From Alphaproteobacteria bacterium (lineage in GTDB: Bacteria; Pseudomonadota; Alphaproteobacteria; JAQWUY01), in assembly GCA_965276005.1 (NCBI GenBank), contig OZ254962.1, forward strand, positions 2,564,455-2,628,454: DNA of 64,000 nt. Direction: 5' to 3'. The first letter of the stretch is position 1; every line of letters starts with the position of its first letter. Made by a program: the position numbers and the translations under genes. The notes beneath the pieces are model-generated. The model saw only the letters and a program-made list of their open reading frames with translations, was not told the DNA's origin and did no database searches. Shown piece by piece: positions 23,272 through 37,257 of this stretch.

Positions 23272-23495
23272 ATACATATAACACAGTAGAAAGAAGGTCG
23301 AAAAAATGATTCTTAACAGTCATGCCAAACTAGGGGATTGCTTAATATGCAGTGCTTGAATACATATAACACATTAGAAAGAAGGTCGAAAAAATGATTC
23401 TTAACAGTTGTGCCAAACTAGGGGATTGCTTAATATGCAGTGCTTGAATACATATAACATAGTAGAAAAAAGGTCGAAAAAATGATTTCTAAGGG
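23247..23495 (+). repeat. Three tandem 88-bp repeats spanning the nrdA stop and nrdB start. Each unit carries the nrdA 3' end (DCL[TI]CSA-stop), a ~40-nt spacer and the nrdB RBS+ATG
   Basis: Units at 23247, 23335 and 23423 (period 88) differ by ~4-6 substitutions each. Copies 1 and 2 contain 17-codon mini-ORFs MILNSHAKLGDCLICSA. Confidence 0.9.
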
Positions 23496-24477
23496 GTGTA
23501 CTTCTATTTTTCCTTTGCAGTATCCGGAAATTTGGGATCGCTATAAGCTGCATGTGCAATCGTTTTGGACACCGGAAGAGGTGTCGTTTCAAGACGATTT
23601 ACGGGATTTACAAAAATTGGGCGTGGGTGAAAAACGCTTTATCAATCATGTGCTGGCGTTCTTTGCCAATTCGGAGGCAATGATTAACGAAAACTTAGCA
23701 TCTAGGTTTTATAAGGAAATTCTTATTCCAGAGGCACGGGCGTTTATATCGATGCAGATGTTAAACGAAACCATTCATGCCGAGACCTATGCGTTGCAAA
23801 TTGAAACCTATGTGCCGAACCAAGCGGAAAAAGACCAGCTGTTCGACGCTATCGAAAATGTCCCTTGTATCCACAAAAAAGCCCTGTGGGTGGGTAAGTG
23901 GCTGAGTGGCAAACAAAACTTATTAACCCGTCTTATCGGTTTTGGCTTGGTCGAGGGGTTGTTTTTTGCCGGCTCTTTTTGTGCCATTTATTATTTTCGC
24001 AAACGGGGATTGTTGCCGGGACTGGCGTTAAGCAACGACTGGATCGCCCGTGATGAAGGCATGCACTTTAGTTTTTCTGCTCTGATGTTTCGGACTTTGC
24101 GGCAAAAATACCTAAAGGGCACCCTTGACGATACCATGTTATCTGATGTAAACCTGATTTCTGGCGATGTGCCACAACAGGAATTTGAGCACATCGTACG
24201 GGAGGCACTGGAGTGCGAAAAAGAATTCGTGCGGGACGCTCTGCCCGTAGATTTAATCGGTATGAATGCGGACTTAATGTGCCAATACATCGAAGCAGTT
24301 GCCGATCGCATTGCCGATTTATTCGGCTTCGACCGGGTGTTTCACACAGAAAACCCATTCGACTTTATGCGGGCATTAGATGTGCAGAATGTGACCAACT
24401 TTTTTGAAAAGAGAGTATCCGAATACCAACGCCCCACAAACCGAGATTTATCGTTTAACGAAGACGAAGATTTTTAA
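23482..24477 (+). CDS. nrdB: Class Ia ribonucleotide reductase beta subunit NrdB
   Basis: Ferritin-like di-iron ligands (EAIHAETY, ...EGLFFAGSF...), 331 aa. Confidence 0.95.
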   Translation: MISKGCTSIFPLQYPEIWDRYKLHVQSFWTPEEVSFQDDLRDLQKLGVGEKRFINHVLAFFANSEAMINENLASRFYKEILIPEARAFISMQMLNETIHAETYALQIETYVPNQAEKDQLFDAIENVPCIHKKALWVGKWLSGKQNLLTRLIGFGLVEGLFFAGSFCAIYYFRKRGLLPGLALSNDWIARDEGMHFSFSALMFRTLRQKYLKGTLDDTMLSDVNLISGDVPQQEFEHIVREALECEKEFVRDALPVDLIGMNADLMCQYIEAVADRIADLFGFDRVFHTENPFDFMRALDVQNVTNFFEKRVSEYQRPTNRDLSFNEDEDF

Positions 24478-24492
24478 CAGACAGGATATATA

Positions 24493-25416
24493 ATGATGGG
24501 TGTATCAGAGAAAAACAGTTTTGGGCTTCGTAATGGTAAAAAAATTTATCACGGGTATAATGACGAACGCAAGGTAAAAGATAGAAAAGCTAAAGAAAAA
24601 ACAAGGCTTGGATATGAGTCATACGCAAAAGATTTTGAAAGAATCACGCATACTTTACCCGATAGCTATTTGAATTCCATTGTCTGTGGGGACAGTTTAG
24701 AAGTTTTAAAAAACATGCCAAATAATTGTATCGATATTGTGATGACTTCTCCTCCATACAATTTTGGGCTAGAATATAATACCCATTCGGATACGGACAA
24801 ATGGCATGACTATTTTGATATGTTATTTGCTATATTCGACGAATGTATTCGGGTGTTAAAATATAGCGGTAGAATAATAGTCAATGTGCAACCCCTGTTT
24901 TCTGACTATATTCCCACACATCATATAGTCAGCAAGCATTTTTTGGATAAAGGCTTAATTTGGAAAGGGGAAATACTTTGGGAGAAAAACAATTATAACT
25001 GTAAGTACACAGCATGGGGCAGTTGGAAGAGCCCAGCAAGCCCATACTTAAAATATACATGGGAATTCTTAGAAGTGTTTTGTAAGGGACATTTAAAAAA
25101 GAAAGGCGATAGTGGGAATATTGATATAACGGACGAAGAATTTAAAAAATTTGTCGTCGCCAAGTGGTCGATCGCCCCAGGACGGGATATGAAAAAATAC
25201 GGGCACCCCGCTATGTTTCCCGAAAAGTTAGTAGAAAGATGCCTTAAATTATTTAGTTTTAAAGGAGATATTGTGTTAGATCCTTTTAATGGCGTGGGAA
25301 CAACGACTTATGTTGCCAAATCTTTAAAAAGAAGCTATGTCGGGATCGATGTGTCCAACGAATATTGTATTACCGCACAAAATAGAATAGACAGCATGCA
25401 GCAGGAGTTGTTTTAA
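24493..25416 (+). CDS. Beta-class amino-DNA methyltransferase (motif IV SPPY before motif I FNGVGTT), probably N4-cytosine
   Basis: IDIVMTSPPYNFG ... HPAMFPEKLVERCLKLFSFKGDIVLDPFNGVGTT. AT-rich gene, 4-bp overlap with the downstream ORF. Confidence 0.85.
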   Translation: MMGVSEKNSFGLRNGKKIYHGYNDERKVKDRKAKEKTRLGYESYAKDFERITHTLPDSYLNSIVCGDSLEVLKNMPNNCIDIVMTSPPYNFGLEYNTHSDTDKWHDYFDMLFAIFDECIRVLKYSGRIIVNVQPLFSDYIPTHHIVSKHFLDKGLIWKGEILWEKNNYNCKYTAWGSWKSPASPYLKYTWEFLEVFCKGHLKKKGDSGNIDITDEEFKKFVVAKWSIAPGRDMKKYGHPAMFPEKLVERCLKLFSFKGDIVLDPFNGVGTTTYVAKSLKRSYVGIDVSNEYCITAQNRIDSMQQELF

Positions 25417-25417
25417 A

Positions 25418-26113
25418 ATGACCGTAAAAAATATCGATGCGATAATACAATATTATGAAAGTGTTGTGAAAACAGCAGATCAGACCGCCGAACATAATAA
25501 AGATCGGGCGTATGGTGGGTTTGTTCGAGCGACTAAAGGTGTGATGTTGGAAAATATAACAGAAAGTCTTATAAAAATAGCATGGCAAGAATTAGCAGCA
25601 GATGAAGGCAGACTGGTTATAAATAAAACAAAAATAAATATCCCCATTGTACAAGATTATATAGACAATATGCAAGATAATGAGATAAAACAATATATTC
25701 AAAAAAACATATCGGACTATACATTTAAATGTTCTGTCGATAAACATGTATACATCGATAACACATTTGTGTTGGCTGTAGAATGTAAGGCATATGCTGA
25801 AAATGCCATGTTAAAAAGAATATTGGTTGATTTTCATTTGCTTAAAACTATGCACCCAGATTTGCAATGTGTTTTGTTGCAACTGGAAAGTCAATTAGGC
25901 GGGGATTATGCACAGCTTGCTAAAAATCCTTTTGGGTCTAAGCCATCGCATACGCTTATGTCGTATTTTAATTTACAAATTTTAACCTTGCTTAAGGGTG
26001 AGAGAAAGGTAGATAGACCTATATACAAACCTGAGTATTACAAACCTTTATCAAAAACAAGGGTGCAGTATATTAAAAGTGAAATGAAACAATTACTAAC
26101 ACATTATTTATGA
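25418..26113 (+). CDS. Putative Type II restriction endonuclease (PD-(D/E)xK-like: D...ECK)
   Basis: Translationally coupled to the methyltransferase, and its ...VDKHVYIDNTFVLAVECKAY core fits D-x(n)-E-x-K. No other homology is recognisable by eye. Confidence 0.5.
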   Translation: MTVKNIDAIIQYYESVVKTADQTAEHNKDRAYGGFVRATKGVMLENITESLIKIAWQELAADEGRLVINKTKINIPIVQDYIDNMQDNEIKQYIQKNISDYTFKCSVDKHVYIDNTFVLAVECKAYAENAMLKRILVDFHLLKTMHPDLQCVLLQLESQLGGDYAQLAKNPFGSKPSHTLMSYFNLQILTLLKGERKVDRPIYKPEYYKPLSKTRVQYIKSEMKQLLTHYL

Positions 26114-26123
26114 GGAGAAGATC

Positions 26124-26378
26124 ATGCAATTTATTATATATTCAAAAGACAACTGTCCAAATTGTGAAAAAGCAAAAGCCCTAGTAATGGGGGCAGGACA
26201 TACACCACAGATTAAAAAATTAGGCGAAGATATTAGCCGAGAGGCATTTTTCGCCCGCTTTAGCAACGCCAAAACCCTACCACAAATAGAACTAAACGGC
26301 GAACACATCGGCGGTTTTTCCCAGCTAGAACAAACGATGGCAGAAAAAAAATTACACTTCGATAATGACGATTTTTAA
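26124..26378 (+). CDS. Glutaredoxin/NrdH-like small redoxin (CPNC active site)
   Basis: 84 aa, MQFIIYSKDNCPNCEKAKALV... thioredoxin-fold N-terminus, downstream of nrdAB. Confidence 0.7.
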   Translation: MQFIIYSKDNCPNCEKAKALVMGAGHTPQIKKLGEDISREAFFARFSNAKTLPQIELNGEHIGGFSQLEQTMAEKKLHFDNDDF

Positions 26379-26677
26379 TTAAATAAAGGGTGCCATAACA
26401 GATTTTGCAACGAATCTATGACATGTTGCCAATGGTCATCTTGATGTCAGCTCGCAGGAAAACCGTATCCACTAGCAAGACTGATATTGTCTTCACCTTT
26501 TCTGATATACGACAACAATATGTTATGTTTCCATTGGAGAGTAGGTATGGTTTTTAATATATAATTTAGAATTAATAACAAAGGGTATACAAATTTGCTG
26601 TTGTCAATAGTTCTGTACCCCCATGTTTGTGGAATTGTCACCGGTCTGTTTTGTTATAAAAAAATGGCACATAAAAA

Positions 26678-26707
26678 AGGGGGCGTACCATACGCCCCCT
26701 GTTTTTC
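26678..26707. terminator. Bidirectional Rho-independent terminator (GGGGGCGTA-cca-TACGCCCCC flanked by an A-run and a T-run)
   Basis: 9-bp perfect GC-rich stem, 3-nt loop; aaaaaa upstream, tgtttttct downstream. Confidence 0.8.
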
Positions 26708-26726
26708 TGCCCACAGGGCAAAGGTC

Positions 26727-26801
26727 TTATGACACGGCGAACGCCCCTGCGATTAGTACTGCGATTACCGCCAGACCTTTATAAAATACATTATTTTTCA
26801 T
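26727..26801 (-). CDS. Candidate 24-aa hydrophobic membrane peptide (MKNNVFYKGLAVIAVLIAGAFAVS)
   Basis: Perfect SD AAGGAGA 8 nt upstream of the ATG on the minus strand, single TM helix, ends at the bidirectional terminator. The ORF-track 71-aa version has no RBS at its first Met. Confidence 0.45.
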   Translation of the reverse strand: MKNNVFYKGLAVIAVLIAGAFAVS

Positions 26802-27130
26802 TTTAAATCTCCTTGTGATGGAAATTGCTATATGGGGTATTGCCCCTATTTTTAGCGTTGCAAGCCGCCCCACACCACGCTTGTACGACCAACCACCGTA
26901 CAACTGCACGACATGGGGAGCCCGCCCCTCGATTATATACACCTTTTTTTGTCGTTGTCAATGTGTGTTTTTTTGGTAATGGCTTTTTTTGATAAACAGG
27001 TGGTTACTTACCCATCTATTTTCCCATAGTAAGGGGGTGTTTTTCATGAAAACAGCCTTTATGGGGAAAAATGAGGTGTATATTTGCCAATATGTTATGT
27101 GCATTTCACGATAAGATAGGCACATATAAT

Positions 27131-27178
27131 CAAAAATAGAGTATTTTCACGAATAAATACTCTATTTTTACGGGGTTT
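27131..27178. terminator. Hairpin with 13-14-bp perfect stem (AAAAATAGAGTATTT-tcacgaat-AAATACTCTATTTTT) plus a T-run; bidirectional terminator-like
   Basis: Seen directly in sequence between the small peptide gene leader and the subtilisin promoter region. Confidence 0.6.
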
Positions 27179-27237
27179 ATGTGTATTTGGCGTAAAATTC
27201 CCCTACTTCGTCATCATTTTAAGGTATATGTGGTGCA

Positions 27238-27358
27238 GGTCATTTTCTTGACCGTATTTCAATTATTAACAAGTCATTTGTTTGACAATAAGTTTGGGTT
27301 ATCTAACGGGTCGTTTGTTCGACCATTCTTTGATTATTTGCAGATCATTTTCTTGGTC
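27238..27358 (+). promoter_or_regulatory. Array of four 16-bp direct repeats with inverted arms GGTC-N8-GACC (ggtcattttcttgacc, agtcatttgtttgaca, ggtcgtttgttcgacc, gatcattttcttggtc), spaced 34-37 bp, upstream of the subtilisin gene
   Basis: Copies at 27238, 27272, 27309 and 27343. Located 60-180 bp upstream of the ATG at 27421. Confidence 0.55.
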
Positions 27359-27420
27359 ACGCTTTGTGTATTCACAGTTTGATAACGAAACATTTGACAC
27401 AAGCGTAAGAGGCATTTAAC

Positions 27421-29853
27421 ATGAAAAAGAGTGTTATCACATGTATTGTAGGGGTGATTCTATCTGCATGTGGCGACGGAGGAAGTACATCATTCCCTAC
27501 AGCTTTAAGCGGTGCGATCGCAGTGGGTGGTAGTGCCAGCGGTGCACAAGGGGGGCGTTTATTCCAACGCAATCAAGTTGCTAGCGGTGCTTATCAAGTA
27601 CCCTTTAGCGGTAACGGCGAACGCATCGGCATACTGGAAGGCAAAAGTGTATACAACGGCAACGCAGAATATCGCAACCGTATCGAATACGGATTAAAAG
27701 CACAAGGCGGTCGCTATACGGGGGTTATTCGCAACGATGTCCCCGCATTTCAAAGTGCCCGGGCACGACATGCGGACATGGTGACTTCTGTTGCCATTGG
27801 TAAGACTTTTGGCATTGCCCATCGGGCACGGGCGGTAGATTACAATTATGCATTTCCCATAGGCAACAGCTATTATTCGAATCACATCGAACTGGGCAGA
27901 ATATACAGCGATGCCAAATCCCGCAACTTGGTGGCTATGAATAACAGCTGGCGGACATGGTTACACGCAGAATACACCCGTGGTAGAAATGGCTATGACA
28001 GCAGTGCGGTACAAAGAGTCCAAGCAGCGGCAACCACATTGGGCGTAGACATAGACGGCAACGGTGTGAGCATGCAATACATATTTGGCAAGCGGTGTAG
28101 TAAATATAGCCGTTATTTGACTTATGCCGAAAATGGGCACCAAGTCTATACAAGCCAATACCGTGCCATATCGCAACAAGAATTACAATCGACTTATGAT
28201 TCACGGTGCAAAGGGGGATATTCCCCATATGCCAGCCGCAGTGTCTATGAAAAATATATCGGGGCGGATTTTATCCGTCAGATTGAAGCCGACAGTACCA
28301 ACGATCGTGATGCCCCTATATGGGTATGGGCGGCGGGCAATGACAACGAAGAAAACGGATCGTTATTTGCGAGCCTACCCGCACAGATTCCTAAGGCAGA
28401 AGACTATTGGCTGGCGGTGGTTGCCACCGAATATACCAGCGGGCAATATCGGCATACACGCTATTCGGCAACATGCGGACGCGCCCGGCGATATTGCTTA
28501 ACTGCTGTATCCGAAGGGGCAAGACATGTGACTTATGATGACAGGAGCTATGGCAATGGTGGCACTTCGGCGGCGGCACCGTCCGTGACGGCGGGGCTTG
28601 CGGTGGTAAAACAGGCGTTTCCCTCAAAAGATCGCCGCTGGGCAAGACGGCGGATATTGGCGACCGCATCGCACATCACCGCTGATGGCGAGCGGTTACG
28701 GGATGCAAACGGCAATATCGTCACCCCAGATGCACAAGGATATTCAAACATATTTGGCAGAGGCATTATGCGCTTGGACAAGGCGATTCAACCTATGGGC
28801 AATAGTGTCTTGTCCGTATCAGGGGCAAGTCTGGACGATGCGGAAAAATACTCCGTACAGGACAGCTTCATACACTCATCCCCAGTGTTTGGCGATGGGC
28901 TGAAACAAGGGCTGTCAAACATTGATACCAAAAAATTTGATGCTATGGGGGCGGAATTCGACTACAACATGGGCGACGGAGCATTCGTAACAGCGGCAAC
29001 AACCCCATCTAGGTTTTTAGATTTCGATGGTCAAAATGTATCTTACACCCCAACTCTTCACCATATTGGCACCAGCAATATGTCGTTTGTCGACACAGAC
29101 CCGTATCGATTTGCCAACTTTACATATACTGAGCAAAACTTGCCATTTATGCCAAAGGCGGAAAATCCTAAACGGCAACCGCTGCATATGTCCTATGCTT
29201 ACGATGCGGACAAGGCAATACAGATAAGTATCCCCAACCATGAAGATTACAGAGACATCGATTCTATGTCGTTACAATTTGTCTATGGCAAATTAACGCC
29301 AACCGTTGCGTCTGGTACCGTCCGCAGTGTCGGGCTACACACGGAACAAGGCACGGTTTTAGGCAGCAATTTTAGAGGGGCATATGGCGGCGTAGGACGG
29401 ACAAACACTGTTTATATGAACCGTACCACCCATTGGCAATGGGGCGATTGGAACTTGCGCTATAATTCTGTGTTTGGTATCAGCACCAGCAACGGTATAG
29501 GCGGTCGTAGCATACAGAATATATCCGGGCTGTTGTCCAGTAATTTCAGTGTGATTGCCCGCAAAGAATATCGTACAGGACAGCTGGGCATAGCATTTTA
29601 CCAACCGCTACGGGTGGAACGGGGCGTTATGGATGTGTCGTTTGTGTCTGATGTTCGCAACAACACAATGGTATCATACGACACCCAACAAGTAGACATC
29701 ACACCCAGTGGCAGAGAGATCGCATTCGAAGCCTATTACGATTTTGCCAACAGTCCATTTACCGTAAAAACCCACATCAGCAAGGATAAAAACCACATCA
29801 AAGGCAAGGACGACACCACCGTATTACTAAGGTATTTTAAACCGTTTAAATAA
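27421..29853 (+). CDS. Subtilisin-family (S8) serine protease lipoprotein with large beta-rich C-terminal region (SphB1/NalP-like)
   Basis: Lipobox LSAC at residues 14-17; oxyanion VWAAGNDNE; Ser motif GNGGTSAAAPSVTAGLAVV; 810 aa. The C-terminal ~300 aa have alternating hydrophobic beta-strand character. Confidence 0.75.
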   Translation: MKKSVITCIVGVILSACGDGGSTSFPTALSGAIAVGGSASGAQGGRLFQRNQVASGAYQVPFSGNGERIGILEGKSVYNGNAEYRNRIEYGLKAQGGRYTGVIRNDVPAFQSARARHADMVTSVAIGKTFGIAHRARAVDYNYAFPIGNSYYSNHIELGRIYSDAKSRNLVAMNNSWRTWLHAEYTRGRNGYDSSAVQRVQAAATTLGVDIDGNGVSMQYIFGKRCSKYSRYLTYAENGHQVYTSQYRAISQQELQSTYDSRCKGGYSPYASRSVYEKYIGADFIRQIEADSTNDRDAPIWVWAAGNDNEENGSLFASLPAQIPKAEDYWLAVVATEYTSGQYRHTRYSATCGRARRYCLTAVSEGARHVTYDDRSYGNGGTSAAAPSVTAGLAVVKQAFPSKDRRWARRRILATASHITADGERLRDANGNIVTPDAQGYSNIFGRGIMRLDKAIQPMGNSVLSVSGASLDDAEKYSVQDSFIHSSPVFGDGLKQGLSNIDTKKFDAMGAEFDYNMGDGAFVTAATTPSRFLDFDGQNVSYTPTLHHIGTSNMSFVDTDPYRFANFTYTEQNLPFMPKAENPKRQPLHMSYAYDADKAIQISIPNHEDYRDIDSMSLQFVYGKLTPTVASGTVRSVGLHTEQGTVLGSNFRGAYGGVGRTNTVYMNRTTHWQWGDWNLRYNSVFGISTSNGIGGRSIQNISGLLSSNFSVIARKEYRTGQLGIAFYQPLRVERGVMDVSFVSDVRNNTMVSYDTQQVDITPSGREIAFEAYYDFANSPFTVKTHISKDKNHIKGKDDTTVLLRYFKPFK

Positions 29854-30069
29854 TGGGTGCTTTAGGAAAAGGTAACGCCTTAGTAAAGGGGGGATAGTTG
29901 TTGTTTGTATGTGGTCGTCAATGGGGGGCATAGCCCCCCATTGACAGTATAAGCAAATATGGCAGATATGTTGTAGGTATCCAACAGGGTTTTCCAAGAA
30001 AAAAATCCCGTTGACAACACACCAACATTATGATAGTGTGTTACATTCATGGACAGTGGGGAAAAAATT

Positions 30070-30744
30070 ATGCACGCAGAAGTTATTACAGTCGATACGC
30101 TATCTATCGCCAAAAGGTTACAAGCCTCTGGTATAATCGAGGAGCATGCGAAAGCTATTGCCAATGAACAGGTAAACACGATAAATGCGAATTTGGCTAC
30201 TAAGGGTGATATTGAACAGTTTCAAGCCGAGACCAAAAAAGACATTAAATGGTTGCAATATGAGACCAAAAAAGACATTGAATTGTTGCAATCTGAGATC
30301 AAAAAAGATATTGAATTGTTGCAATCTGAGACTAAAAAGGACATTGCCAATATCTATAAAGAGATCGAGCGGTTTCAAATGGAGACCAAAAAAGATATTG
30401 CCAATATTCATAAAGAGATCGAACGGTTTCAAGCGGAAACTAAAAAAGACATTGAACGGTTTCAAGCGGAGACCAAAAAAGACATTGAACGGTTGCAAGC
30501 GGAGACCAAAAAAGATATTGCCAATATTTATAAAGAGATCGAACGGTTTCAAGCGGAGAGCAAGAAAGACATTGAACGCATGCAGGCTGAAAACAAAAAA
30601 GACATCGAACAGCACCGATTCGATACTACAAAGGATATTCGGATTGCCATGTATAAGACAGCTGGTTTTACGATTACCAGCATTGTAACCTTGTTGACCG
30701 TTATTCAAATTGTTATTGTGATATTGACACCGGTTGGGTCATAA
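30070..30744 (+). CDS. DUF1640-like coiled-coil membrane protein with tandem 11/18-aa repeats (ETKKDIE[R/L][F/L]QA...) and C-terminal TM helix
   Basis: N-terminus DTLSIAKRLQASGIIEEHAKAIANE typical of DUF1640; repeats are also tandem at the DNA level (33/54-bp units, 30229-30600); GGGGA RBS before the ATG at 30070. Confidence 0.55.
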   Translation: MHAEVITVDTLSIAKRLQASGIIEEHAKAIANEQVNTINANLATKGDIEQFQAETKKDIKWLQYETKKDIELLQSEIKKDIELLQSETKKDIANIYKEIERFQMETKKDIANIHKEIERFQAETKKDIERFQAETKKDIERLQAETKKDIANIYKEIERFQAESKKDIERMQAENKKDIEQHRFDTTKDIRIAMYKTAGFTITSIVTLLTVIQIVIVILTPVGS

Positions 30745-30878
30745 AAAACGAAAGGTGCCTTGCGGCAGGGGCTTCGTATTATCGTCCAAACTCGCACCCA
30801 AGCGGCGTTCGATGTAACAAAAAGTCGAATATATTTTCCTTTAAAAACAATGATATAGAATATCATATAGAAGAGAAG

Positions 30879-30893
30879 TTTTTTTTTTTTTTT
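30879..30893 (+). repeat. Homopolymeric T15 tract immediately upstream of the putative promoter of the TPS-domain giant gene
   Basis: gaagagaag-T15-aaatttt; 21 bp upstream of TTGACA at 30914. Confidence 0.9.
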
Positions 30894-30913
30894 AAATTTT
30901 AATAAAATTTTGC

Positions 30914-30943
30914 TTGACATTCCCAATTTGGATATGGTACACT
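30914..30943 (+). promoter_or_regulatory. Candidate promoter TTGACA-18-TACACT (alternative -10 TATAAA at 30945) for the 31082 gene
   Basis: Consensus -35 hexamer; about 140 bp upstream of the start codon. Confidence 0.35.
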
Positions 30944-31081
30944 GTATAAATGCGTAAGTATGTATACGGTGTTATTTGCGTATGTTAGATTAAATTTTTG
31001 TTTTATGGTTACTTGGTGATCACATACAAGATGCGGAGAGGGCGTTTTGTGTGGAGATGTGCCGGATTTAGGAGATATGTG

Positions 31082-34000
31082 ATGAGATGTGATAAAAAAG
31101 TGTTTATGGTGGCGTCATCGTTGTATGCTGCTGGTATGTTGTCTGGTGGTTTTGCCTATGCGGGCGGGCTTCCCAGTGGGGGGCAGGTCGTTGATGGCAG
31201 TGCCAGTATTTCCCAACAGGGCGACACCCTGAATATAAATCAGCAATCGGATAAAGCGATTATCAGCTGGAAAGATTTTTCTGTAGGCAAGGGCAATACG
31301 GTAAATTTCAATCAGCCGGCTAGTGATTCGGCAACTTTAAATCGGGTTACGGGGGATTTTACTTCTGAGATTGCCGGACAGATTAACGCTAATGGTAGCG
31401 TATTCTTAATAAACCCCAATGGGATACTGATTACTGCGGATGGTGTTATCGACACGGGCGGTTTTGTCGCCTCGACTCTCGACATCGACACCAACGATTT
31501 TTTGAATGGCGATTATACATTTACAAAAAGCGGTAGCAATGGCGTTGTTTCGAATCGGGGTCATATTTCGGTCGATGATGGCGGTTTTGTTGCCCTACTA
31601 GGCGGGGCGGTGAAAAACAGCGGCGTTGTCCGTGCCCATGTGGGTAAAGTAGGCTTTGGTGGCGGTGAAAAAATTGTAATGTCATTCGGCAACAACGATT
31701 TTTTACGGGTCGAAGTACCAACGGATAAATGGGACAAGCTGACCGATTCGCAAGGCAATAAAGTGCTTGCGACTGTTGACTTGGGCGGCACTGTCGACTC
31801 TCGGGGCGGCTTTATCGACATAGCCGTTGCCGATGCGGCGGATATTTTACGGCAGTCGATTTCCATAACCGGGGTGGTATCTGCAAACACTGTGTCCTCC
31901 ACAGACGGGGTTATATCGATTAGTGGCGGTTCGTTGGGGGTTATCGGTAACGGGCGAATCACCGCTGATGCGGATTATGGCAATGCGGGTAGCATAAATG
32001 TCGCCGTAGATTCCATCGATGGCAACGGTCGATTTTCTGCGGCATCACAAAATGGCACTGGAGGAAAAATTAAAATATCGTTACAACACGGGGCGGATTT
32101 AACCGTTGGTGCAAGTTTTGATGTGTCTGGTCGCACCGCTGGGGGGAGTCTGTCGTTTATTGGTGGACTATCCGGCAAAGGTGAGTCGAAAATATTAGGG
32201 TCGATAGATTTTAAAGCCGACAGTACAGACGGTAAAGGCGGATATATCGACATTGGCAACAAGGGCGGCTTAGTCGGTCTGTTCTCTGGTACCTTATCGG
32301 CAACCGGTAAGGTGCAAGGCGGGCGAATCCGTGTGGGCGGGGCGTTTCAAGGCGGCGGCTATGACCCAAAAACCAGCCAACTCGACACCAAGACCCAAGA
32401 TTTATTTGCAACCCGTTGGGCGGATAACAGCTCCCTTGTTAGTGCCAGCAAAACTTCGCTGGGCACGGGCGTAAATGTCGTCGTATCGTCTGCATCCGGC
32501 ACAGGCGGCACGGCTATTTTATGGGCGGATCATACCACCAATAACTATGCGGCTATCGATGCCACTGGTGCCACTGGTGGCGGTGCGGTGGAAATATCTG
32601 GTAAGAAACAGGTCAAAAGTTTTGGCTTAGCCCGGGTAAAAGCCGGCAATGGGGTTATTTTACTCGATCCGAAAAATATACGCATTACCGCAGAATGGGG
32701 CAGTGCAGCAAGCCAAGTACAACAGATTGCATCTGCATGGGATCATTGGCGAAATGGTAAGTTTGGTGCCAGTGTAGCGTTAAGCCGTGACGGCAATACG
32801 ATGGCCGTAGGGGCTCCCGGCGTTGATCTTAATAAAGGTGCGGTATATATTTACGATGTTGCCGGTGGCAAATGGGGGGCGACAGCAACACATAGCCGTA
32901 CCATTAAACATGACACTCGTATTTATGTGGAATCGACGGGTCGCATGGGTAGCGTGCATTTAGAGGATAATGGTAAAAAACATTACTTTGGTAGTAGTGT
33001 AGCACTGAATGACGATGGAAAGTACCTAGCTGTCGGTGCTCCCTCCGGTGGTGGTGCTAGTAAAGGTGAGGTGAGTCTGTTTCATCTTGGTAGCATAGCC
33101 TATTATTCTACACCTGGTAAGGGGAGTACACTTGTGAGAAAGAGACGGATTCAATATGGTGGTTCACATAATGGCGATCGCATTACAGTGTCTGGTGGTG
33201 CAAGTGACCCTCAGTTTGGTTCTGCTGTAGCCATCAGTGATGATGGAAAGAGAATGGCTGTTGGGGCATCTAATGAACTTCACAGTGGGTGTGCTGGTCA
33301 TTCACATTGCAGAGGGGCAGTATATGTAATCACGACAGATTCATGGAACTCGAACAGGTGGGGCAATTCAAAGTATTTGAAGATTGATAACAAACAGTCA
33401 GCAATGACATGGGTAACCTCTAGTGCTCACGGTAGCTCGTCCCAAAATCGTTTGTATGATAATCACCGCTTCGGTTTTAGTTTGGCTATGAGTAGCGATG
33501 GAACGAAGCTAGCTGTTGGGGATCCTGCCCATCGGCGTTTTGATACTAATTATTCGTATGGGCACGAAAAGGGAGGGAAACAAATAGGGGCGGTACACCT
33601 ACTCGGAATTATTTATAAAGAGGATGATGACGGTAGTGTTACCGATATCAAACCGTATTATGCACGGTTGGTTACACATAGTAGCTCAGCAGCGGATGAT
33701 GAGTTTGGCAGCAGTGTTGCGTTGAGTGGTGATGGCTTCAAATTGGCTGTCGGGGCACCGAATCACGATAGCGGTGTCTCCGGTGATAACAAGTATGGGG
33801 CGGTGTATCTGTACCGCATTCCAGCTAATGGGTGGGCTGTGAGTATAAGTAGGATTGAAGGAAATAATAACCATCCAATCTTTGAGAGAAAGATCGATGT
33901 CGAATATGATAGTTTTGGACTTTTTGGAATGAGTAGTTCTAATAAATTGGACAAGGATCATTTGTTCGGTTCATCTGTGGCACTCAATGGGACAGGCGAT

Positions 34001-36322
34001 AGGTTGGTTGTCGGGTCACCCGGTGTGAAGAATAACTCAGGACATGTGCGATTGATAAATGTTTCCAGTATGAAAGCGATTGTAGAAGGAAAATTAAATG
34101 ATGGTACAAATCTCACCTATTATGCCAGTAACAATATCACCATAGATGCGGATATAACAGCCAGCAGTGGTAAACTTAACTTAATCGCCGGCAAATCGAT
34201 CGAAATTAACAATGATATAAAAGTCAATGGCGGGCTTGTACTAAAAGCCAATGACGCCAGCGATAGTGATTTTATTTTAAGCGAACGGGACACAGGCAAA
34301 GCGGAAATCACCGTTGCAGCAGGCAAAAAGCTAGAGACCAATGGCGATTTGATTATCAAAATGCTAACGGGTGCAAGCGGTGCCGCTAATAACAAAAAAC
34401 AAACCGGCAAAATCACTGTCGACAAAGTAAAAGGCGAACGGGTTAGCATTGCGTATGCAGGTGCAACCAATGCAGACAGCGATTCAGAAATTGTTATCCG
34501 CAACGGTGGGCAAGTCGAGGCGACTAAATCTCCATCATCCGCAGAGGTTGTCTTGGAACTCAAAGCAGACAAATTTACCAACCTATCAAATAGTAATGCT
34601 TTAAAAACAGCATCAAAGGGTCTGTACTTGGTGTGGGCAAAAACCCCTGCAACTAACACTATGAATGGCATAGCCAACTATGGTTTTGTGCAATTTAACA
34701 AGCCATACAGTGGTAGTGGTTGGAACAACACTGGGCTTGCTGAGAGAGATAAAAGTGCCTTTATATACAGTGCTAATCCATCCTTAGCTATGTCATTTAC
34801 AGGCGAAAAAACCAAGGTGTATGATGGCACTTCTGCACCAGCAGGCAACACCTTTGCGTTCAAAAACAACGGGGTTTATAATGGATTGAAGTTTAAAATC
34901 GGTGGGTATGTGGACACTTCGTCCAATAAGCACTTTAATTTCAAAGGCACCTTTACCACCAATGCCAGCGGTAAGTTTTACAACACAGCCGGCACTGCGG
35001 AACAAAAAGATGCGGGAAGCAACTTAACCTTGAAATTTACAGGACATGCCATGTCGTATGTGGATGGCAACAATGTAACCGCATACGGCTTGGTGTCCGT
35101 GCCCACCATAGACGATGTAACCGGTGCATCAATTACTCGAAAAACCTTGAAAGTTAGTGCAACTTACAGCAACCGTGAGTATGACGGCACAACAAATGTG
35201 ACAATAGATCCAGCGACTGTAACCATCGACGGTTGGGTCGCTGGCGAAGGCAACAGCAATGTTAATAATGTGTTTAACGGTTCGTTGACGGCAACAGCTG
35301 CTGAGAAAGATGTGGGTACTCATATCGTAACATTAGGCGGATCTAATGGTTTAAAAGCACCATATGCAACGAACTATAAGCCTGAATATGACAACAGCAA
35401 GTCTATTACTATCAATCCAAAATCCTTACAACTAAAAATGAGCGACTTGTTTGTAAAAGACCGAAACTATGCATCAGGAGTATTACATGCCCCCGTGTCT
35501 ATCAAAGACGGTGAAAAGGGGTTTGATAGCGGCGATTTGGTGAATGGTGATAGCGGCGTAACATTAACAATAGCTAACGGGGCGTTTGTATATAAAGATG
35601 ATAATATCGGAAGTAACAAAGAAGTATTCATCGGTGATAAAGACAAGTTTACACTAAATTCCCAAAACTATGAATTGCAATACAGATTTAGGAGTCTTGA
35701 TTCTGCTAAAGGTGCACTCACCACACTGAGAGGGAATATTAAAGCCACAGACTCTGACGACAGTGATGGTGATGGTAAAAAAGACTTAGCCACCCCCGGT
35801 GGCAGTGGCGGCGGTAGCGGTGGCGGTGGCGGCGGCGGTGATTCGGGTGCTGGCGTTGTTCTGTTAGGTGCCGGTGCTGTCGTGGCGACGCAAACCGGTG
35901 TGTTAGCCAAAGTTACAGCAGCTGCAACAGCGGCAGCCGGAGCGGCAGGAGCCGCAAGTGGTGCCGGTGCCGCAGGGGCAGGGGCAGCAGGTGCCGGCGG
36001 TGCAGGTGGTGCAAGTGGCACATTAGGTGCCCCACTTGGCAGCATCGACACCATATTCAACAGCGGTGTATACGCCCACCTGAGCGGTATCGATATGCAG
36101 GCACTATATCAACCACAAACCCCCATACCATCCATATTTAACACCCCACAAAAGGTAACATACAAAGCCAAATACACCACCACATACGATATGACAATTC
36201 TTGCCAATAACATCAAGGCACAAAAGGTAGTACCTCTGTACGAACTGGACGAAAAAATGTACGAAACCTTGAAACGCATATTTGTACATAGCGGCGAAAC
36301 AGACGACACCCCCCATAGTTAA
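31082..36322 (+). CDS. Giant TpsA-type exoprotein: N-terminal TPS/haemagglutination-activity domain fused to FG-GAP repeats, an MBG-like (…REYDGTTNVTID…) region, a beta-helix-like block, a Gly/Ala-rich linker and a C-terminal domain shared with gene 1
   Basis: TPS hallmarks LNINQQSDKAIISWKDFSVGKGNTVNFNQP ... ANGSVFLINPNGILI (NPNGI). FG-GAP units (FGASVALSRDGNTMAVGAP...GAVYIYDV etc.). LNLIAGKSIEINNDIKVNGGLVLKANDAS...GKAEITVAAGK is ~70% identical to gene 1. C-terminal GVYAHLSGIDMQALYQP...KYTTTYDMTILANNIKAQKVVPLYELDEKMYETLKRIFV. The start at 31082 is chosen to give a signal-peptide-like N-terminus (the ORF track begins at 30998). Confidence 0.85.
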   Translation: MRCDKKVFMVASSLYAAGMLSGGFAYAGGLPSGGQVVDGSASISQQGDTLNINQQSDKAIISWKDFSVGKGNTVNFNQPASDSATLNRVTGDFTSEIAGQINANGSVFLINPNGILITADGVIDTGGFVASTLDIDTNDFLNGDYTFTKSGSNGVVSNRGHISVDDGGFVALLGGAVKNSGVVRAHVGKVGFGGGEKIVMSFGNNDFLRVEVPTDKWDKLTDSQGNKVLATVDLGGTVDSRGGFIDIAVADAADILRQSISITGVVSANTVSSTDGVISISGGSLGVIGNGRITADADYGNAGSINVAVDSIDGNGRFSAASQNGTGGKIKISLQHGADLTVGASFDVSGRTAGGSLSFIGGLSGKGESKILGSIDFKADSTDGKGGYIDIGNKGGLVGLFSGTLSATGKVQGGRIRVGGAFQGGGYDPKTSQLDTKTQDLFATRWADNSSLVSASKTSLGTGVNVVVSSASGTGGTAILWADHTTNNYAAIDATGATGGGAVEISGKKQVKSFGLARVKAGNGVILLDPKNIRITAEWGSAASQVQQIASAWDHWRNGKFGASVALSRDGNTMAVGAPGVDLNKGAVYIYDVAGGKWGATATHSRTIKHDTRIYVESTGRMGSVHLEDNGKKHYFGSSVALNDDGKYLAVGAPSGGGASKGEVSLFHLGSIAYYSTPGKGSTLVRKRRIQYGGSHNGDRITVSGGASDPQFGSAVAISDDGKRMAVGASNELHSGCAGHSHCRGAVYVITTDSWNSNRWGNSKYLKIDNKQSAMTWVTSSAHGSSSQNRLYDNHRFGFSLAMSSDGTKLAVGDPAHRRFDTNYSYGHEKGGKQIGAVHLLGIIYKEDDDGSVTDIKPYYARLVTHSSSAADDEFGSSVALSGDGFKLAVGAPNHDSGVSGDNKYGAVYLYRIPANGWAVSISRIEGNNNHPIFERKIDVEYDSFGLFGMSSSNKLDKDHLFGSSVALNGTGDRLVVGSPGVKNNSGHVRLINVSSMKAIVEGKLNDGTNLTYYASNNITIDADITASSGKLNLIAGKSIEINNDIKVNGGLVLKANDASDSDFILSERDTGKAEITVAAGKKLETNGDLIIKMLTGASGAANNKKQTGKITVDKVKGERVSIAYAGATNADSDSEIVIRNGGQVEATKSPSSAEVVLELKADKFTNLSNSNALKTASKGLYLVWAKTPATNTMNGIANYGFVQFNKPYSGSGWNNTGLAERDKSAFIYSANPSLAMSFTGEKTKVYDGTSAPAGNTFAFKNNGVYNGLKFKIGGYVDTSSNKHFNFKGTFTTNASGKFYNTAGTAEQKDAGSNLTLKFTGHAMSYVDGNNVTAYGLVSVPTIDDVTGASITRKTLKVSATYSNREYDGTTNVTIDPATVTIDGWVAGEGNSNVNNVFNGSLTATAAEKDVGTHIVTLGGSNGLKAPYATNYKPEYDNSKSITINPKSLQLKMSDLFVKDRNYASGVLHAPVSIKDGEKGFDSGDLVNGDSGVTLTIANGAFVYKDDNIGSNKEVFIGDKDKFTLNSQNYELQYRFRSLDSAKGALTTLRGNIKATDSDDSDGDGKKDLATPGGSGGGSGGGGGGGDSGAGVVLLGAGAVVATQTGVLAKVTAAATAAAGAAGAASGAGAAGAGAAGAGGAGGASGTLGAPLGSIDTIFNSGVYAHLSGIDMQALYQPQTPIPSIFNTPQKVTYKAKYTTTYDMTILANNIKAQKVVPLYELDEKMYETLKRIFVHSGETDDTPHS

Positions 36323-36422
36323 GGATGGGTGTTGTCCTTTCGGCACATGTTAGATGCGGTTAAGGCATTCGTTATGTATTTTTATTCTTGACATATAAAA
36401 ATCCATATAGTATATATATGGT

Positions 36423-36680
36423 ATGGTTACTGTTAGGCAAGTTTATTGGACAAAGGATGCTCAGAAATTTATGGACAGCTTGCCTGCCGATGTGTCCGAA
36501 CGGATATATAAAGCGGTGCGTAAAGTTGCAGATGGCAACAATGCCAATGTGGTAAAACTTGTTGGGTCGCCATATTATCGCTTGCGTGTCGGTAAGTGGC
36601 GGGTGATTTTTAATGACGATGGGGTCATTGTCGAGATTATTGAAATAGGTTCCCGTGGTTCCATTTATAAGCGTAGATAG
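36423..36680 (+). CDS. RelE/ParE-family (HigB/Gp49-like) toxin
   Basis: 85 aa, ...YRLRVGKWRVIFNDDGVIVEIIEIGSRG pattern; followed by an XRE-HTH partner. Confidence 0.7.
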   Translation: MVTVRQVYWTKDAQKFMDSLPADVSERIYKAVRKVADGNNANVVKLVGSPYYRLRVGKWRVIFNDDGVIVEIIEIGSRGSIYKRR

Positions 36681-36692
36681 GAAAAAAATAGT

Positions 36693-37106
36693 ATGAATGT
36701 ACAATATATTACAGATAGCACAGGAGCAAAGATGGCTGTATTGCCCGCATCAGAGTTCGATAAATTGCAACGCATTAAGGCGATGTCCGATAACAATATG
36801 CAAGATAAATTGGATATTATGAGAGCAGACGAAATTATGCACCGTGTGCGTCAACATAACGAAGAACTTATACCAGACGAAGTGATGCGGAAAATTTATC
36901 AACAACGGCAAAATCGTATTCGTGTGTATCGTCAATGGCGTGGGTATCAAATTAATGAACTTGCCAATGTGATTGATATTACCCCGGGGTATTTGTCGAA
37001 CATAGAACGAGGGGTACGGGAAGGCACAATAACCGTGTACCAAAAACTCGCCAAAGCGTTACAAACAGATATTGAAAGCTTGTTGCCCCGTACGGAAATG
37101 TTATAA
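36693..37106 (+). CDS. HigA-like antitoxin / XRE-family HTH protein
   Basis: C-terminal HTH QINELANVIDITPGYLSNIERGVREGTITVYQKLAKAL; 13 bp after the toxin gene. Confidence 0.65.
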   Translation: MNVQYITDSTGAKMAVLPASEFDKLQRIKAMSDNNMQDKLDIMRADEIMHRVRQHNEELIPDEVMRKIYQQRQNRIRVYRQWRGYQINELANVIDITPGYLSNIERGVREGTITVYQKLAKALQTDIESLLPRTEML

Positions 37107-37257
37107 CTGTGCCGTTGTTGGTGGGGCATAAGCCCCTCGGACTCTGCCCCCTTTACTTACGCACCGATCCATGTATTGTAAATTTTTATATTTTTTATGG
37201 TTTGGTTGTGGTATAGTCGCACTGTAAACACTATACGATTTATGGAATAATATACAT

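What the first reader, a model, noticed from the sequence alone, without database searches (positions are those of the whole stretch)
27421..29853. Subtilisin-family lipoprotein with beta-rich C-terminus immediately upstream of the tpsA-like gene: SphB1-like maturation protease?
Lipobox (LSAC), S8 motifs (AAGNDNE, GGTSAAAPSVTAGL) and a ~300-aa beta-rich C-terminal region resemble Bordetella SphB1 and Neisseria NalP, surface subtilases that proteolytically mature TpsA/FhaB and other exoproteins. Its position next to a TpsA-like gene suggests a dedicated maturation protease. No TpsB is present in the window.
Basis: partly seen in the sequence, partly recalled or inferred. Interest (0 to 1): 0.7.

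Follow-up and report, generated by a model that had tools for sequence, protein, structure and literature searches.

The report
Outer-membrane subtilase lipoprotein with Glu-His-Ser triad
The gene is real and encodes a lipid-anchored subtilisin-type protease fused to an outer-membrane beta-barrel, but it belongs to a large uncharacterised, mostly alphaproteobacterial family, has glutamate in place of the usual catalytic aspartate, and its closeness to the TpsA-like gene is a lineage-specific accident rather than a conserved partnership.

Summary

His117, Asn307 and Ser383 are conserved, but the catalytic Asp is Glu73. Glu marks one old clade (11 of 119 members, with 3 Asp forms nested in it), so an active Glu-His-Ser variant is more likely than a dead enzyme.

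The TpsA link is weak:
- A 231-aa gene, a hairpin and a promoter-like site lie between the two genes.
- None of about 19 homologous gene copies at 11 other loci has a TpsA-like gene within 10 kb.
- At the syntenic site in a related complete genome, the 6.6-kb block (orf231, TpsA-like, ParE/HTH) is absent.
- The window's genome appears to carry at least 25 TpsA-like paralogs.

SphB1/NalP-like architecture is partly supported. A dedicated maturation role is not.

The parts
27407..27412 (+). Ribosome-binding site AAGAGG, 8 nt before the ATG
   Evidence: Read directly from the sequence.
27421..29853 (+). Coding sequence of the 810-aa S8 lipoprotein with a C-terminal barrel (stop codon included)
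   Evidence: ORF list and translation. Homologues score E = 0 to 1e-79.
27421..27471 (+). Lipoprotein signal peptide, MKKSVITCIVGVILSAC, with lipobox LSAC and lipidated Cys17
   Evidence: Read from the sequence. A lipobox is present in 14 of 14 full-length relatives from other loci and in about half of the wider family.
27472..27555 (+). Gly/Ser/Ala-rich disordered tether (aa 18-45)
   Evidence: pLDDT is below 50 for aa 16-45. A poly-Gly tract follows the Cys in the family consensus.
27556..28785 (+). S8 subtilase domain (aa ~46-455), including a ~115-aa insertion after the NNSW motif (aa ~178-292)
27637..27639 (+). Glu73, at the position of the catalytic Asp (GILEGK)
   Evidence: Alignments. 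Glu-type members fall in one clade with three Asp forms nested in it.
27769..27771 (+). Catalytic His117 (RHADMV)
   Evidence: Invariant in 53 of 53 family members.
28339..28341 (+). Oxyanion-hole Asn307 (WAAGNDNE)
   Evidence: Invariant in 53 of 53 family members.
28567..28569 (+). Catalytic Ser383 (GGTSAAAP)
   Evidence: Invariant in 53 of 53 family members.
28786..28995 (+). Conserved small beta-rich subdomain (aa 456-525) carrying the family motif FGDGL...FD..A.F
   Evidence: pLDDT 91-98. Phe490, Gly491 and Phe513 are nearly invariant, and Asp507 is invariant, across the family.
28996..29181 (+). Low-confidence linker of variable length (aa ~526-587); no membrane-spanning helix is predicted
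   Evidence: pLDDT is below 50 for aa 527-582. In the C-terminal model aa 72-128 are below 50 and the only helix there spans 6 residues.
29182..29835 (+). C-terminal transmembrane beta-barrel (aa ~588-805, about 12-14 strands), followed by the terminal motif LLRYFKPF-K
29913..29950 (+). GC-rich inverted repeat (CAATGGGGGGC-ata-GCCCCCCATTG) just after the stop codon; possibly a transcript end, but it lacks a T run
   Evidence: Read from the sequence. The terminator scan did not call it.
30049..30744 (+). Intervening gene: a 231-aa coiled-coil protein with 33-nt tandem repeats and a hydrophobic C-terminal segment. It is not part of the protease and separates it from the TpsA-like gene.
   Evidence: ORF list. 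Weak CCDC90-like match. Repeat family D1. The L007 copy is 268 aa and 83% identical.
30914..30943 (+). Promoter-like site (TTGACA-18-TACACT with an extended TG) ahead of the TpsA-like gene
   Evidence: Consensus scan only.
31082..36322 (+). TpsA-like gene (TPS domain, FG-GAP repeats, YDG domain). It is a neighbour, not shown to be a partner.
   Evidence: PF05860 at E 1.1e-33 and TIGR01901. The likely ATG start and signal peptide were read from the sequence. P0163 is 100% identical over 1746 aa.
36423..37106 (+). ParE-type toxin gene (36423..36680) and HTH antitoxin-like gene (36693..37106), closing the 6.6-kb block that is absent from the syntenic MAG site
   Evidence: Pfam hits. Indel shown by blastn.

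Best explanation
The gene encodes an outer-membrane-anchored subtilase from a large, uncharacterised, mostly alphaproteobacterial family.

Inferred biogenesis: the protein is exported by Sec and lipidated at Cys17. Position +2 is Gly, not Asp, so it should be sorted to the outer membrane. Its C-terminal ~220-aa beta-barrel, which carries an aromatic terminal motif, would be inserted by BAM. The protease domain is therefore tethered to the outer membrane at both ends. The most likely arrangement is display on the cell surface in an autotransporter-like manner, because its S8 domain is most similar to autotransporter subtilase passengers.

Inferred catalysis: a variant triad of Glu73, His117 and Ser383, with Asn307 as the oxyanion residue.

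Inferred role: cleavage of surface or extracellular proteins. Multi-copy expansion and a hypervariable insertion in the S8 domain point to diversified substrate specificity or antigenic variation.

The protein is not a dedicated, genetically linked maturation protease of the neighbouring TpsA-like protein. That adjacency arose from a lineage-specific 6.6-kb insertion or deletion.

Shown here: the domain architecture, the catalytic-residue pattern, the size of the family, and the lack of conserved linkage. Inferred: topology, activity and substrates.
For: Architecture:
- Lipobox.
- The full-length AF2 model has pLDDT 81 and pTM 0.83, and shows barrel strands at aa 588-805. The C-terminal model has pLDDT 77.5.
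- Relatives end in an aromatic residue.
- Cys352 and Cys359 are nearly invariant, which fits an extracytoplasmic disulfide.

Family:
- 3072 clusters at E <= 1e-3 carry the C-terminal domain, always at the C-terminus of 700-1000-aa proteins.
- All 53 sampled members are S8 proteins.

Likely activity:
- His, Asn and Ser are invariant in 53 of 53.
- Glu-type members form one deep clade with Asp-type members nested inside it, so Asp and Glu interchange while the other catalytic residues stay fixed.

Not dedicated to the TpsA-like gene:
- An intervening gene and a separate promoter-like site lie between them.
- No TpsA-like sequence lies near any other homologous copy.
- The syntenic MAG site lacks the block.
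- The MAG's TpsA homologue has no S8 neighbour.
- At least 25 TPS/FG-GAP paralogs are listed on the same 2,965,790-bp contig as the window's TpsA.

Paralog expansion: at least 6 tandem copies in L001 and 6 dispersed copies in the MAG. Variability peaks in the S8 insertion.
Against: - Surface exposure is not shown. No pore-spanning helix is predicted, and the barrel is not an autotransporter beta-domain by sequence. A periplasm-facing arrangement would need no translocation step.
- I know of no characterised S8 enzyme with Glu at this position and found none in the literature searches, so activity is an inference from conservation.
- The window protein ends in ...PFK rather than in an aromatic residue.
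Confidence: 0.6

Rival explanations
1. SphB1-like maturation protease. The surface-tethered subtilase cleaves the neighbouring TpsA-like protein, or the genome's many TpsA-like paralogs, as they emerge from their TpsB. This would release or mature them.
For: - The overall architecture matches SphB1/NalP: lipobox, S8 domain and C-terminal outer-membrane barrel.
- The S8 domain is closest to autotransporter subtilases.
- SphB1 and NalP are lipidated subtilase autotransporters that cleave FHA and other surface proteins (PMC9977779).
- The gene lies 1.2 kb from a genuine TPS-domain gene in two strains.
- The genome is rich in TpsA-like proteins, so possible substrates are plentiful.
- From my own knowledge, sphB1 is not adjacent to fhaB either, so lack of linkage does not exclude action in trans.
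Against: - The adjacency is not conserved at any other locus.
- The block is an indel at the syntenic MAG site.
- The MAG's TpsA homologue has no S8 neighbour and no TpsB neighbour.
- The family (3072 clusters) sits in unrelated contexts: housekeeping genes, imelysin and iron-related genes, and tandem arrays.
- The two genes are separated by another gene and a promoter-like site.
- Copy numbers do not track each other: the MAG has 6 S8 paralogs but only one TPS homologue appears in the listing, while the window genome has at least 25 TPS paralogs.
Confidence: 0.15
2. Periplasm-facing outer-membrane protease. The lipid anchor sits in the inner leaflet and the barrel termini are periplasmic, so the S8 domain stays in the periplasm, tethered at both ends. 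There it would act on envelope proteins, for quality control or for processing exported proteins in transit.
For: - This is the simplest topology, since it needs no translocation step.
- No pore-spanning helix is predicted, and the pre-barrel linker is disordered.
- The barrel is not an autotransporter beta-domain.
- A lipoprotein with a C-terminal outer-membrane barrel and periplasmic soluble domains has a precedent in TamL (abstract of PMC12045153).
Against: - The S8 domain's nearest relatives are secreted or surface autotransporter passengers.
- Multi-copy expansion with a hypervariable insertion is more typical of exposed proteins.
- A long Gly/Ser tether after the lipid anchor is common in surface lipoproteins (my own knowledge).
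- About half of the family lacks a lipobox yet keeps the barrel, as autotransporters do.
Confidence: 0.17
3. Inactive pseudoprotease. The Asp-to-Glu change disables catalysis, and the protein serves as a variable surface binding protein or antigen.
For: - The canonical Asp is missing.
- S8 pseudoproteases exist: NCBIfam has a CspC 'non-triad' model.
- The family is multi-copy with variable regions.
- A few family members are clearly degenerate, for example P0103 with E, R, N, E at the four catalytic positions.
Against: - His117, Asn307 and Ser383 are retained in every Glu-type member across a clade that diverges to about 25-30% identity.
- Asp and Glu interchange within that clade.
- Glu keeps the carboxylate; Ser-His-Glu triads are known in other hydrolase folds (my own knowledge).
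Confidence: 0.08

Closest known systems
SphB1 (Bordetella pertussis) and NalP (Neisseria meningitidis): lipidated subtilase autotransporters, type Va
   Same: All have an N-terminal lipoprotein signal, an S8 protease domain and a C-terminal outer-membrane beta-barrel, and are anchored at the envelope. Both known proteins cleave other surface proteins (PMC9977779).
   Different: The C-terminal barrel here matches no autotransporter beta-domain model (PF03797, TIGR01414), and the family profile finds no solved structure by sequence, although the PDB includes the NalP barrel. No pore helix is predicted. No passenger-associated repeat or stalk was detected (no PF12951 hit); only a 70-aa subdomain and a disordered linker lie between the protease and the barrel. 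Glu replaces the catalytic Asp. There is no conserved link to a TpsA gene. SphB1 and NalP sequences were not compared directly.
Ssp (Serratia marcescens, PDB 8E7F) and EprS (Pseudomonas aeruginosa) subtilase autotransporters
   Different: Ssp and EprS have a canonical Asp-His-Ser triad, a beta-helical stalk, a PF03797 barrel and no lipobox. This family matches them only over the protease domain.
Sedolisins (family S53, clan SB)
   Different: From my own knowledge, in S53 the Glu replaces the His and an Asp replaces the oxyanion Asn. Here His117 and Asn307 are kept and Glu replaces only the Asp, so this is an S8 variant and not an S53 enzyme.
TamL-type lipoproteins with a C-terminal outer-membrane barrel
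   Different: TamL is an Omp85 protein with POTRA domains and a 16-stranded barrel, and it has no protease domain. No POTRA or Omp85 Pfam hit was found here.

Membership tests
Peptidase family S8 (subtilases) | Subtilisin fold and sequence match to the family model | tested here: met
Peptidase family S8 (subtilases) | Catalytic His and Ser, and the oxyanion Asn, in the order His, Asn, Ser | tested here: met
   His117, Asn307 and Ser383 are invariant in 53 of 53 relatives.
Peptidase family S8 (subtilases) | Catalytic Asp at the end of strand 1 (D-S/T-G motif) | tested here: not met
   Glu73 (GILEGK) occupies this position. Of 129 relatives, 107 have Asp and 11 have Glu. The Glu forms fall in one clade.
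Classical (type Va) subtilase autotransporters such as SphB1 and NalP | C-terminal 12-stranded autotransporter beta-domain (PF03797 / TIGR01414) | tested here: not met
Classical (type Va) subtilase autotransporters such as SphB1 and NalP | Alpha-helical linker that runs through the barrel pore | tested here: inconclusive
   The pre-barrel segment (aa 527-582) has pLDDT below 50, and the only helix there spans 6 residues. Absence from a low-confidence region is not proof.
Classical (type Va) subtilase autotransporters such as SphB1 and NalP | N-terminal lipoprotein signal peptide (specific to SphB1 and NalP) | tested here: met
   Lipobox LSAC with Cys17, conserved in close relatives.
Classical (type Va) subtilase autotransporters such as SphB1 and NalP | Passenger domain exposed on the cell surface | not testable with these tools
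   This needs protease shaving, antibody labelling or a structure that shows the linker in the pore.
SphB1-type TpsA maturation protease (functional class) | Cleaves a TpsA exoprotein | not testable with these tools
   The only proxy available was gene linkage, which is not conserved.
Slam-dependent surface lipoproteins (TbpB, LbpB, fHbp type) | C-terminal 8-stranded barrel domain (for example PF01298) and a nearby Slam (DUF560) gene | tested here: not met
   No such Pfam hit in the protein or in any scanned window ORF. The barrel is about 220 aa with about 12-14 strands, and it matches 12- to 16-stranded membrane barrels.
Two-partner secretion locus (TpsA with TpsB) | A TpsB (POTRA + ShlB-type barrel) gene next to the TpsA gene | tested here: not met
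   No ORF in the window has a POTRA or ShlB hit, and every ORF of 450 aa or more was scanned. The MAG's TpsA homologue also has none within 10 kb. The rest of the genome could not be searched.

The most novel reading that the evidence does not exclude
The C-terminal domain defines an undescribed class of autotransporter-like outer-membrane anchor or translocator. It is a roughly 14-stranded barrel with no pore helix, preceded by a conserved 70-aa subdomain, and it is dedicated to S8 proteases in thousands of mostly alphaproteobacterial lineages. Within this family, one old clade uses a Glu-His-Ser triad that has not been described for subtilases.
Probability: 0.3. Interest if true: 0.65.

Novelty: new variant of a known kind. 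Interest (0 to 1): 0.42.

Why it matters
If the family displays its protease on the surface without a recognisable autotransporter beta-domain or pore helix, it would add a new arrangement to type V-like secretion. It would also give a name and a model to a domain found in more than 3000 protein clusters that currently have no annotation beyond 'S8 family peptidase'.

An active Glu-His-Ser subtilase clade would be a natural experiment on how much the charge-relay residue can vary in clan SB.

For annotation practice, the case is a caution. In a genome with dozens of TpsA-like genes, lying next to one of them is weak evidence of partnership.

Tried and rejected
- Phage origin. RNR, methylase and glutaredoxin genes lie upstream, but the window carries Suf, Thi, transporter and sugar-metabolism genes, and the phage collection gave one weak S8 hit. 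It is a bacterial chromosome.
- Single-sequence search of the PDB with the whole protein: nothing meaningful.
- Word-indexed search with the C-terminal domain alone: only 3 hits. The exhaustive profile search was needed.
- Pfam at E up to 10 on isolated C-terminal domains: only a weak OprB hit in one relative.
- Foldseek against afdb50: the library was not available.
- Gene-position look-ups for P0166, P0013 and P0163, all from the window's own 2.97-Mb genome: not on record. That genome could therefore not be searched for TpsB or for further S8 paralogs.
- Rfam on 26000-37300: no match.
- Repeat scan around the gene: nothing that bears on the protease.
- Literature searches for a Glu variant of the subtilase triad and for this architecture in Alphaproteobacteria: nothing relevant. 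PMC3419190 has no mention of subtilase or lipoprotein autotransporters.
- Slam-type surface lipoprotein: rejected on barrel size and lack of Pfam hits.
- Conserved partner gene next to the paralogs: rejected. The all-against-all comparison of neighbours found none.
Full report
**1. The observation.** ORF 27421..29853 (+) starts with ATG, is 810 codons long and has an AAGAGG ribosome-binding site 8 nt upstream. The product begins MKKSVITCIVGVILSAC: a basic n-region, a hydrophobic core and the lipobox L-S-A-C with Cys17. Pfam Peptidase_S8 matches aa 293-428 at E 2e-12, but only the second half of the model (positions 139-274 of 288). The gene is real: a search of 5.8 billion proteins returned relatives at E = 0 to 3e-79, although only five close ones.

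**2. The catalytic residues.** Alignment with relatives places His117 (RHADMV), Asn307 and Ser383 at the canonical positions. All three are invariant in 53 of 53 sampled family members. The position of the catalytic Asp, the end of strand 1 (consensus G-V-x-V-G-v-v-D-s-G), holds Glu73 in GILEGK.

- Among 129 relatives, 107 have D-H-N-S and 11 have E-H-N-S. A few are clearly degenerate.
- In a neighbour-joining tree of 119 members, the 11 Glu forms fall in one clade of 14 tips, with three Asp forms (P0003, P0031, P0042) nested inside it.
- That clade diverges to about 25-30% identity while His, Asn and Ser stay fixed.

I read this as a working Glu-His-Ser variant rather than a decayed enzyme. 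This is an inference from conservation, not a measurement. I found no paper describing such a variant in subtilases.

**4. The C-terminal region.** After the S8 domain come three parts:
- a confidently modelled 70-aa beta-rich subdomain (aa 456-525, pLDDT 91-98) that carries the family motif FGDGL...FD..A.F;
- a low-confidence linker (aa 527-582);
- a run of long antiparallel strands from aa 588 to 805.

The specific autotransporter beta-domain is not found:
- no PF03797 or TIGR01414 hit in 53 members, nor at E up to 10 in three isolated domains;
- the domain profile finds no solved structure by sequence at E up to 10, although the PDB holds the NalP barrel;
- hhalign against the beta-domain of a classical S8 autotransporter (P0008) gives probability 0.2%;
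- no type Va barrel is among the top structural hits;
- no pore-spanning helix is predicted.

**5. The family.** A profile of aa 440-810 read against 1.84 billion representative proteins finds 3072 clusters at E <= 1e-3 and 1995 at E <= 1e-10. The domain always ends at the C-terminus of proteins of about 700-1000 aa. All 53 sampled members carry S8, three also carry ankyrin repeats, and none has a Pfam model for the C-terminal domain apart from a weak OprB hit in four. About half have a lipobox. The only source name recovered was 'MAG: S8 family peptidase [Alphaproteobacteria bacterium]'. The close clade is multi-copy: at least six tandem copies on contig L001 and six dispersed copies in the complete 2.63-Mb MAG OZ246977.1. 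Among nine close paralogs the barrel is well conserved (about 0.7-0.83 mean pairwise identity). The insertion inside the S8 domain is the most variable part, at 0.33-0.40 for aa 181-240.

**6. The link to the TpsA-like gene.** The downstream gene is a true TPS-domain protein (PF05860 at E 1e-33, TIGR01901) with FG-GAP repeats and a YDG domain. Its likely start is the ATG at 31082, followed by a signal peptide. It is not immediately adjacent to the protease gene. A GC-rich hairpin (29913-29950), a separate 231-aa coiled-coil gene (30049..30744) and a promoter-like site (30914-30943) lie between them.

Conservation tests:
- tblastn of the TpsA-like protein against 13 loci carrying relatives of the protease hits only L007, a 99.5%-identical strain. 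It finds nothing within 10 kb of the about 19 homologous gene copies at the other 11 distinct loci (L001-L005 and L008-L013; L006 is a duplicate record of L005).
- An all-against-all comparison of neighbouring ORFs finds no recurrent partner gene.
- In the MAG, paralog L009 shares its downstream flank with the window (amine oxidase, DUF1365, cyclopropane-fatty-acid synthase and others). blastn shows the two homologous blocks 784 bp apart in the MAG and 7,392 bp apart in the window. The block holding orf231, the TpsA-like gene and a ParE/HTH toxin-antitoxin pair is therefore a 6.6-kb insertion or deletion.
- Conversely, the MAG's TpsA homologue (P0196) sits next to groESL, lon and clpXP, with no S8 gene and no TpsB within 10 kb.
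- The window's TpsA-like protein is 100% identical to P0163, from a 2,965,790-bp contig. My rough estimate is that, with about 25 such genes among roughly 2,700, a given gene has a few per cent chance of lying within two genes of one.

No TpsB is present in the window: every ORF of 450 aa or more was scanned.

**7. Mechanism.** The best-supported reading has four parts.
- Biogenesis: Sec export and lipidation at Cys17, then sorting to the outer membrane (position +2 is Gly) and BAM-dependent insertion of the C-terminal barrel.
- Placement: the protease domain is held at the outer membrane at both ends.
- Catalysis: Ser383, His117 and Glu73, with Asn307 as the oxyanion residue.
- Role: cleavage of envelope or extracellular proteins, with specificity diversified among paralogs.

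Surface display seems more likely than a periplasmic location. The nearest relatives of the S8 domain are autotransporter passengers, the family keeps the barrel even where the lipobox is absent, and the copies are expanded and variable. Topology remains unproven, however. A lipoprotein with a C-terminal outer-membrane barrel and periplasmic domains has a precedent in TamL.

**8. Comparison with known systems and verdict.** The protein plausibly works like SphB1 and NalP in outline, as a lipid-tethered subtilase at the outer membrane (PMC9977779). It fails the membership test for type Va autotransporters on the beta-domain, and it deviates from S8 at the catalytic Asp. A dedicated maturase role for the neighbouring TpsA is not supported by any conserved linkage. 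Action in trans on TpsA-like proteins cannot be excluded, and from my own knowledge sphB1 itself is not linked to fhaB. I classify the protein as a new variant of a known kind, of moderate interest. The most novel points are the unannotated but widespread barrel domain and the Glu-for-Asp clade.

Noticed in passing
window 2-7717 (+): A giant FG-GAP repeat protein. The frame is open from the first bases of the window to 7717, so the protein exceeds 2570 aa and its N-terminus lies outside the window. Pfam finds 28 FG-GAP_2 repeats. Its last ~100 aa are 59% identical to the C-terminus of the L007 strain's TpsA-like protein, which suggests a shared C-terminal module.
   Followed up: partly
window 31082-36322 and proteins P0163-P0202: The window's TpsA-like protein is 100% identical to P0163, from a 2,965,790-bp contig. 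Twenty-four other TPS/FG-GAP proteins in the same listing show that contig length. This implies a very large expansion (at least 25 copies) of TpsA-like genes in a ~3-Mb genome, with no TpsB seen next to the two copies examined.
   Followed up: partly
window 31082-36322 compared with L007 13711-19344: Between the window and the near-identical strain L007, the protease is 99.5% identical. The TpsA-like protein is only 89% identical, falling to 66% in its C-terminal quarter, and it differs in length (1746-1774 aa against 1849 aa). The TpsA-like gene therefore diverges or recombines much faster than its neighbour.
   Followed up: no
window 35800-36100 (aa ~1600-1690 of the TpsA-like protein): A long Gly/Ala-rich hydrophobic low-complexity segment (GGSGGGSGGGGGGGDSGAGVVLLGAGAVVATQ...AGAAGAGGAGGASG) lies near the C-terminus. 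This is unusual for a secreted TpsA and could be a membrane-embedded or flexible segment.
   Followed up: no
window 30049-30744 (+): A 231-aa protein built from 33-nt (11-aa) tandem repeats (ETKKDIE.LQ...) with a hydrophobic C-terminal segment and a weak CCDC90/DUF1640-like match. The L007 copy is 268 aa, so the repeat number varies between strains.
   Followed up: partly
window 36423-37106 (+): A ParE-type toxin gene (85 aa, PF05016 at E 3.5e-7) is followed by an HTH_3 antitoxin-like gene (137 aa). The pair sits at the distal end of the 6.6-kb block that is absent from the syntenic MAG site. A toxin-antitoxin pair at the edge of an indel may mark mobile DNA.
   Followed up: partly
L001 1-14861; L003 8614-14332: Contig L001 carries a head-to-tail array of at least six paralogs of the S8-barrel gene (76-85% identical to one another), some truncated. 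L003 has two copies, each split into two ORFs, probably by frameshifts or as pseudogenes.
   Followed up: partly
window 26379-27420: About 1 kb without a long ORF lies upstream of the protease gene. It contains a bidirectional terminator-like hairpin (26678-26700), a tiny hydrophobic ORF on the minus strand (~26735-26810), a perfect 15-nt palindrome (27132-27169) and a 17-nt direct repeat (27234 and 27339). No Rfam match was found there in the stretch searched (26000-37300).
   Followed up: partly
window 20572-26378 (+): The ribonucleotide reductase large and small subunit genes are followed by an N6/N4 DNA methylase gene, an unknown 231-aa ORF and a glutaredoxin gene. The methylase is oddly embedded in this nrd-type cluster. 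A type I restriction-modification specificity subunit gene lies at 16047-17159.
   Followed up: no
L010 8534-12313: One MAG paralog is 1259 aa, about 300-450 aa longer than its siblings (91-94% identical otherwise). The extra length is in the N-terminal region after the lipobox, so tether length varies among copies.
   Followed up: no
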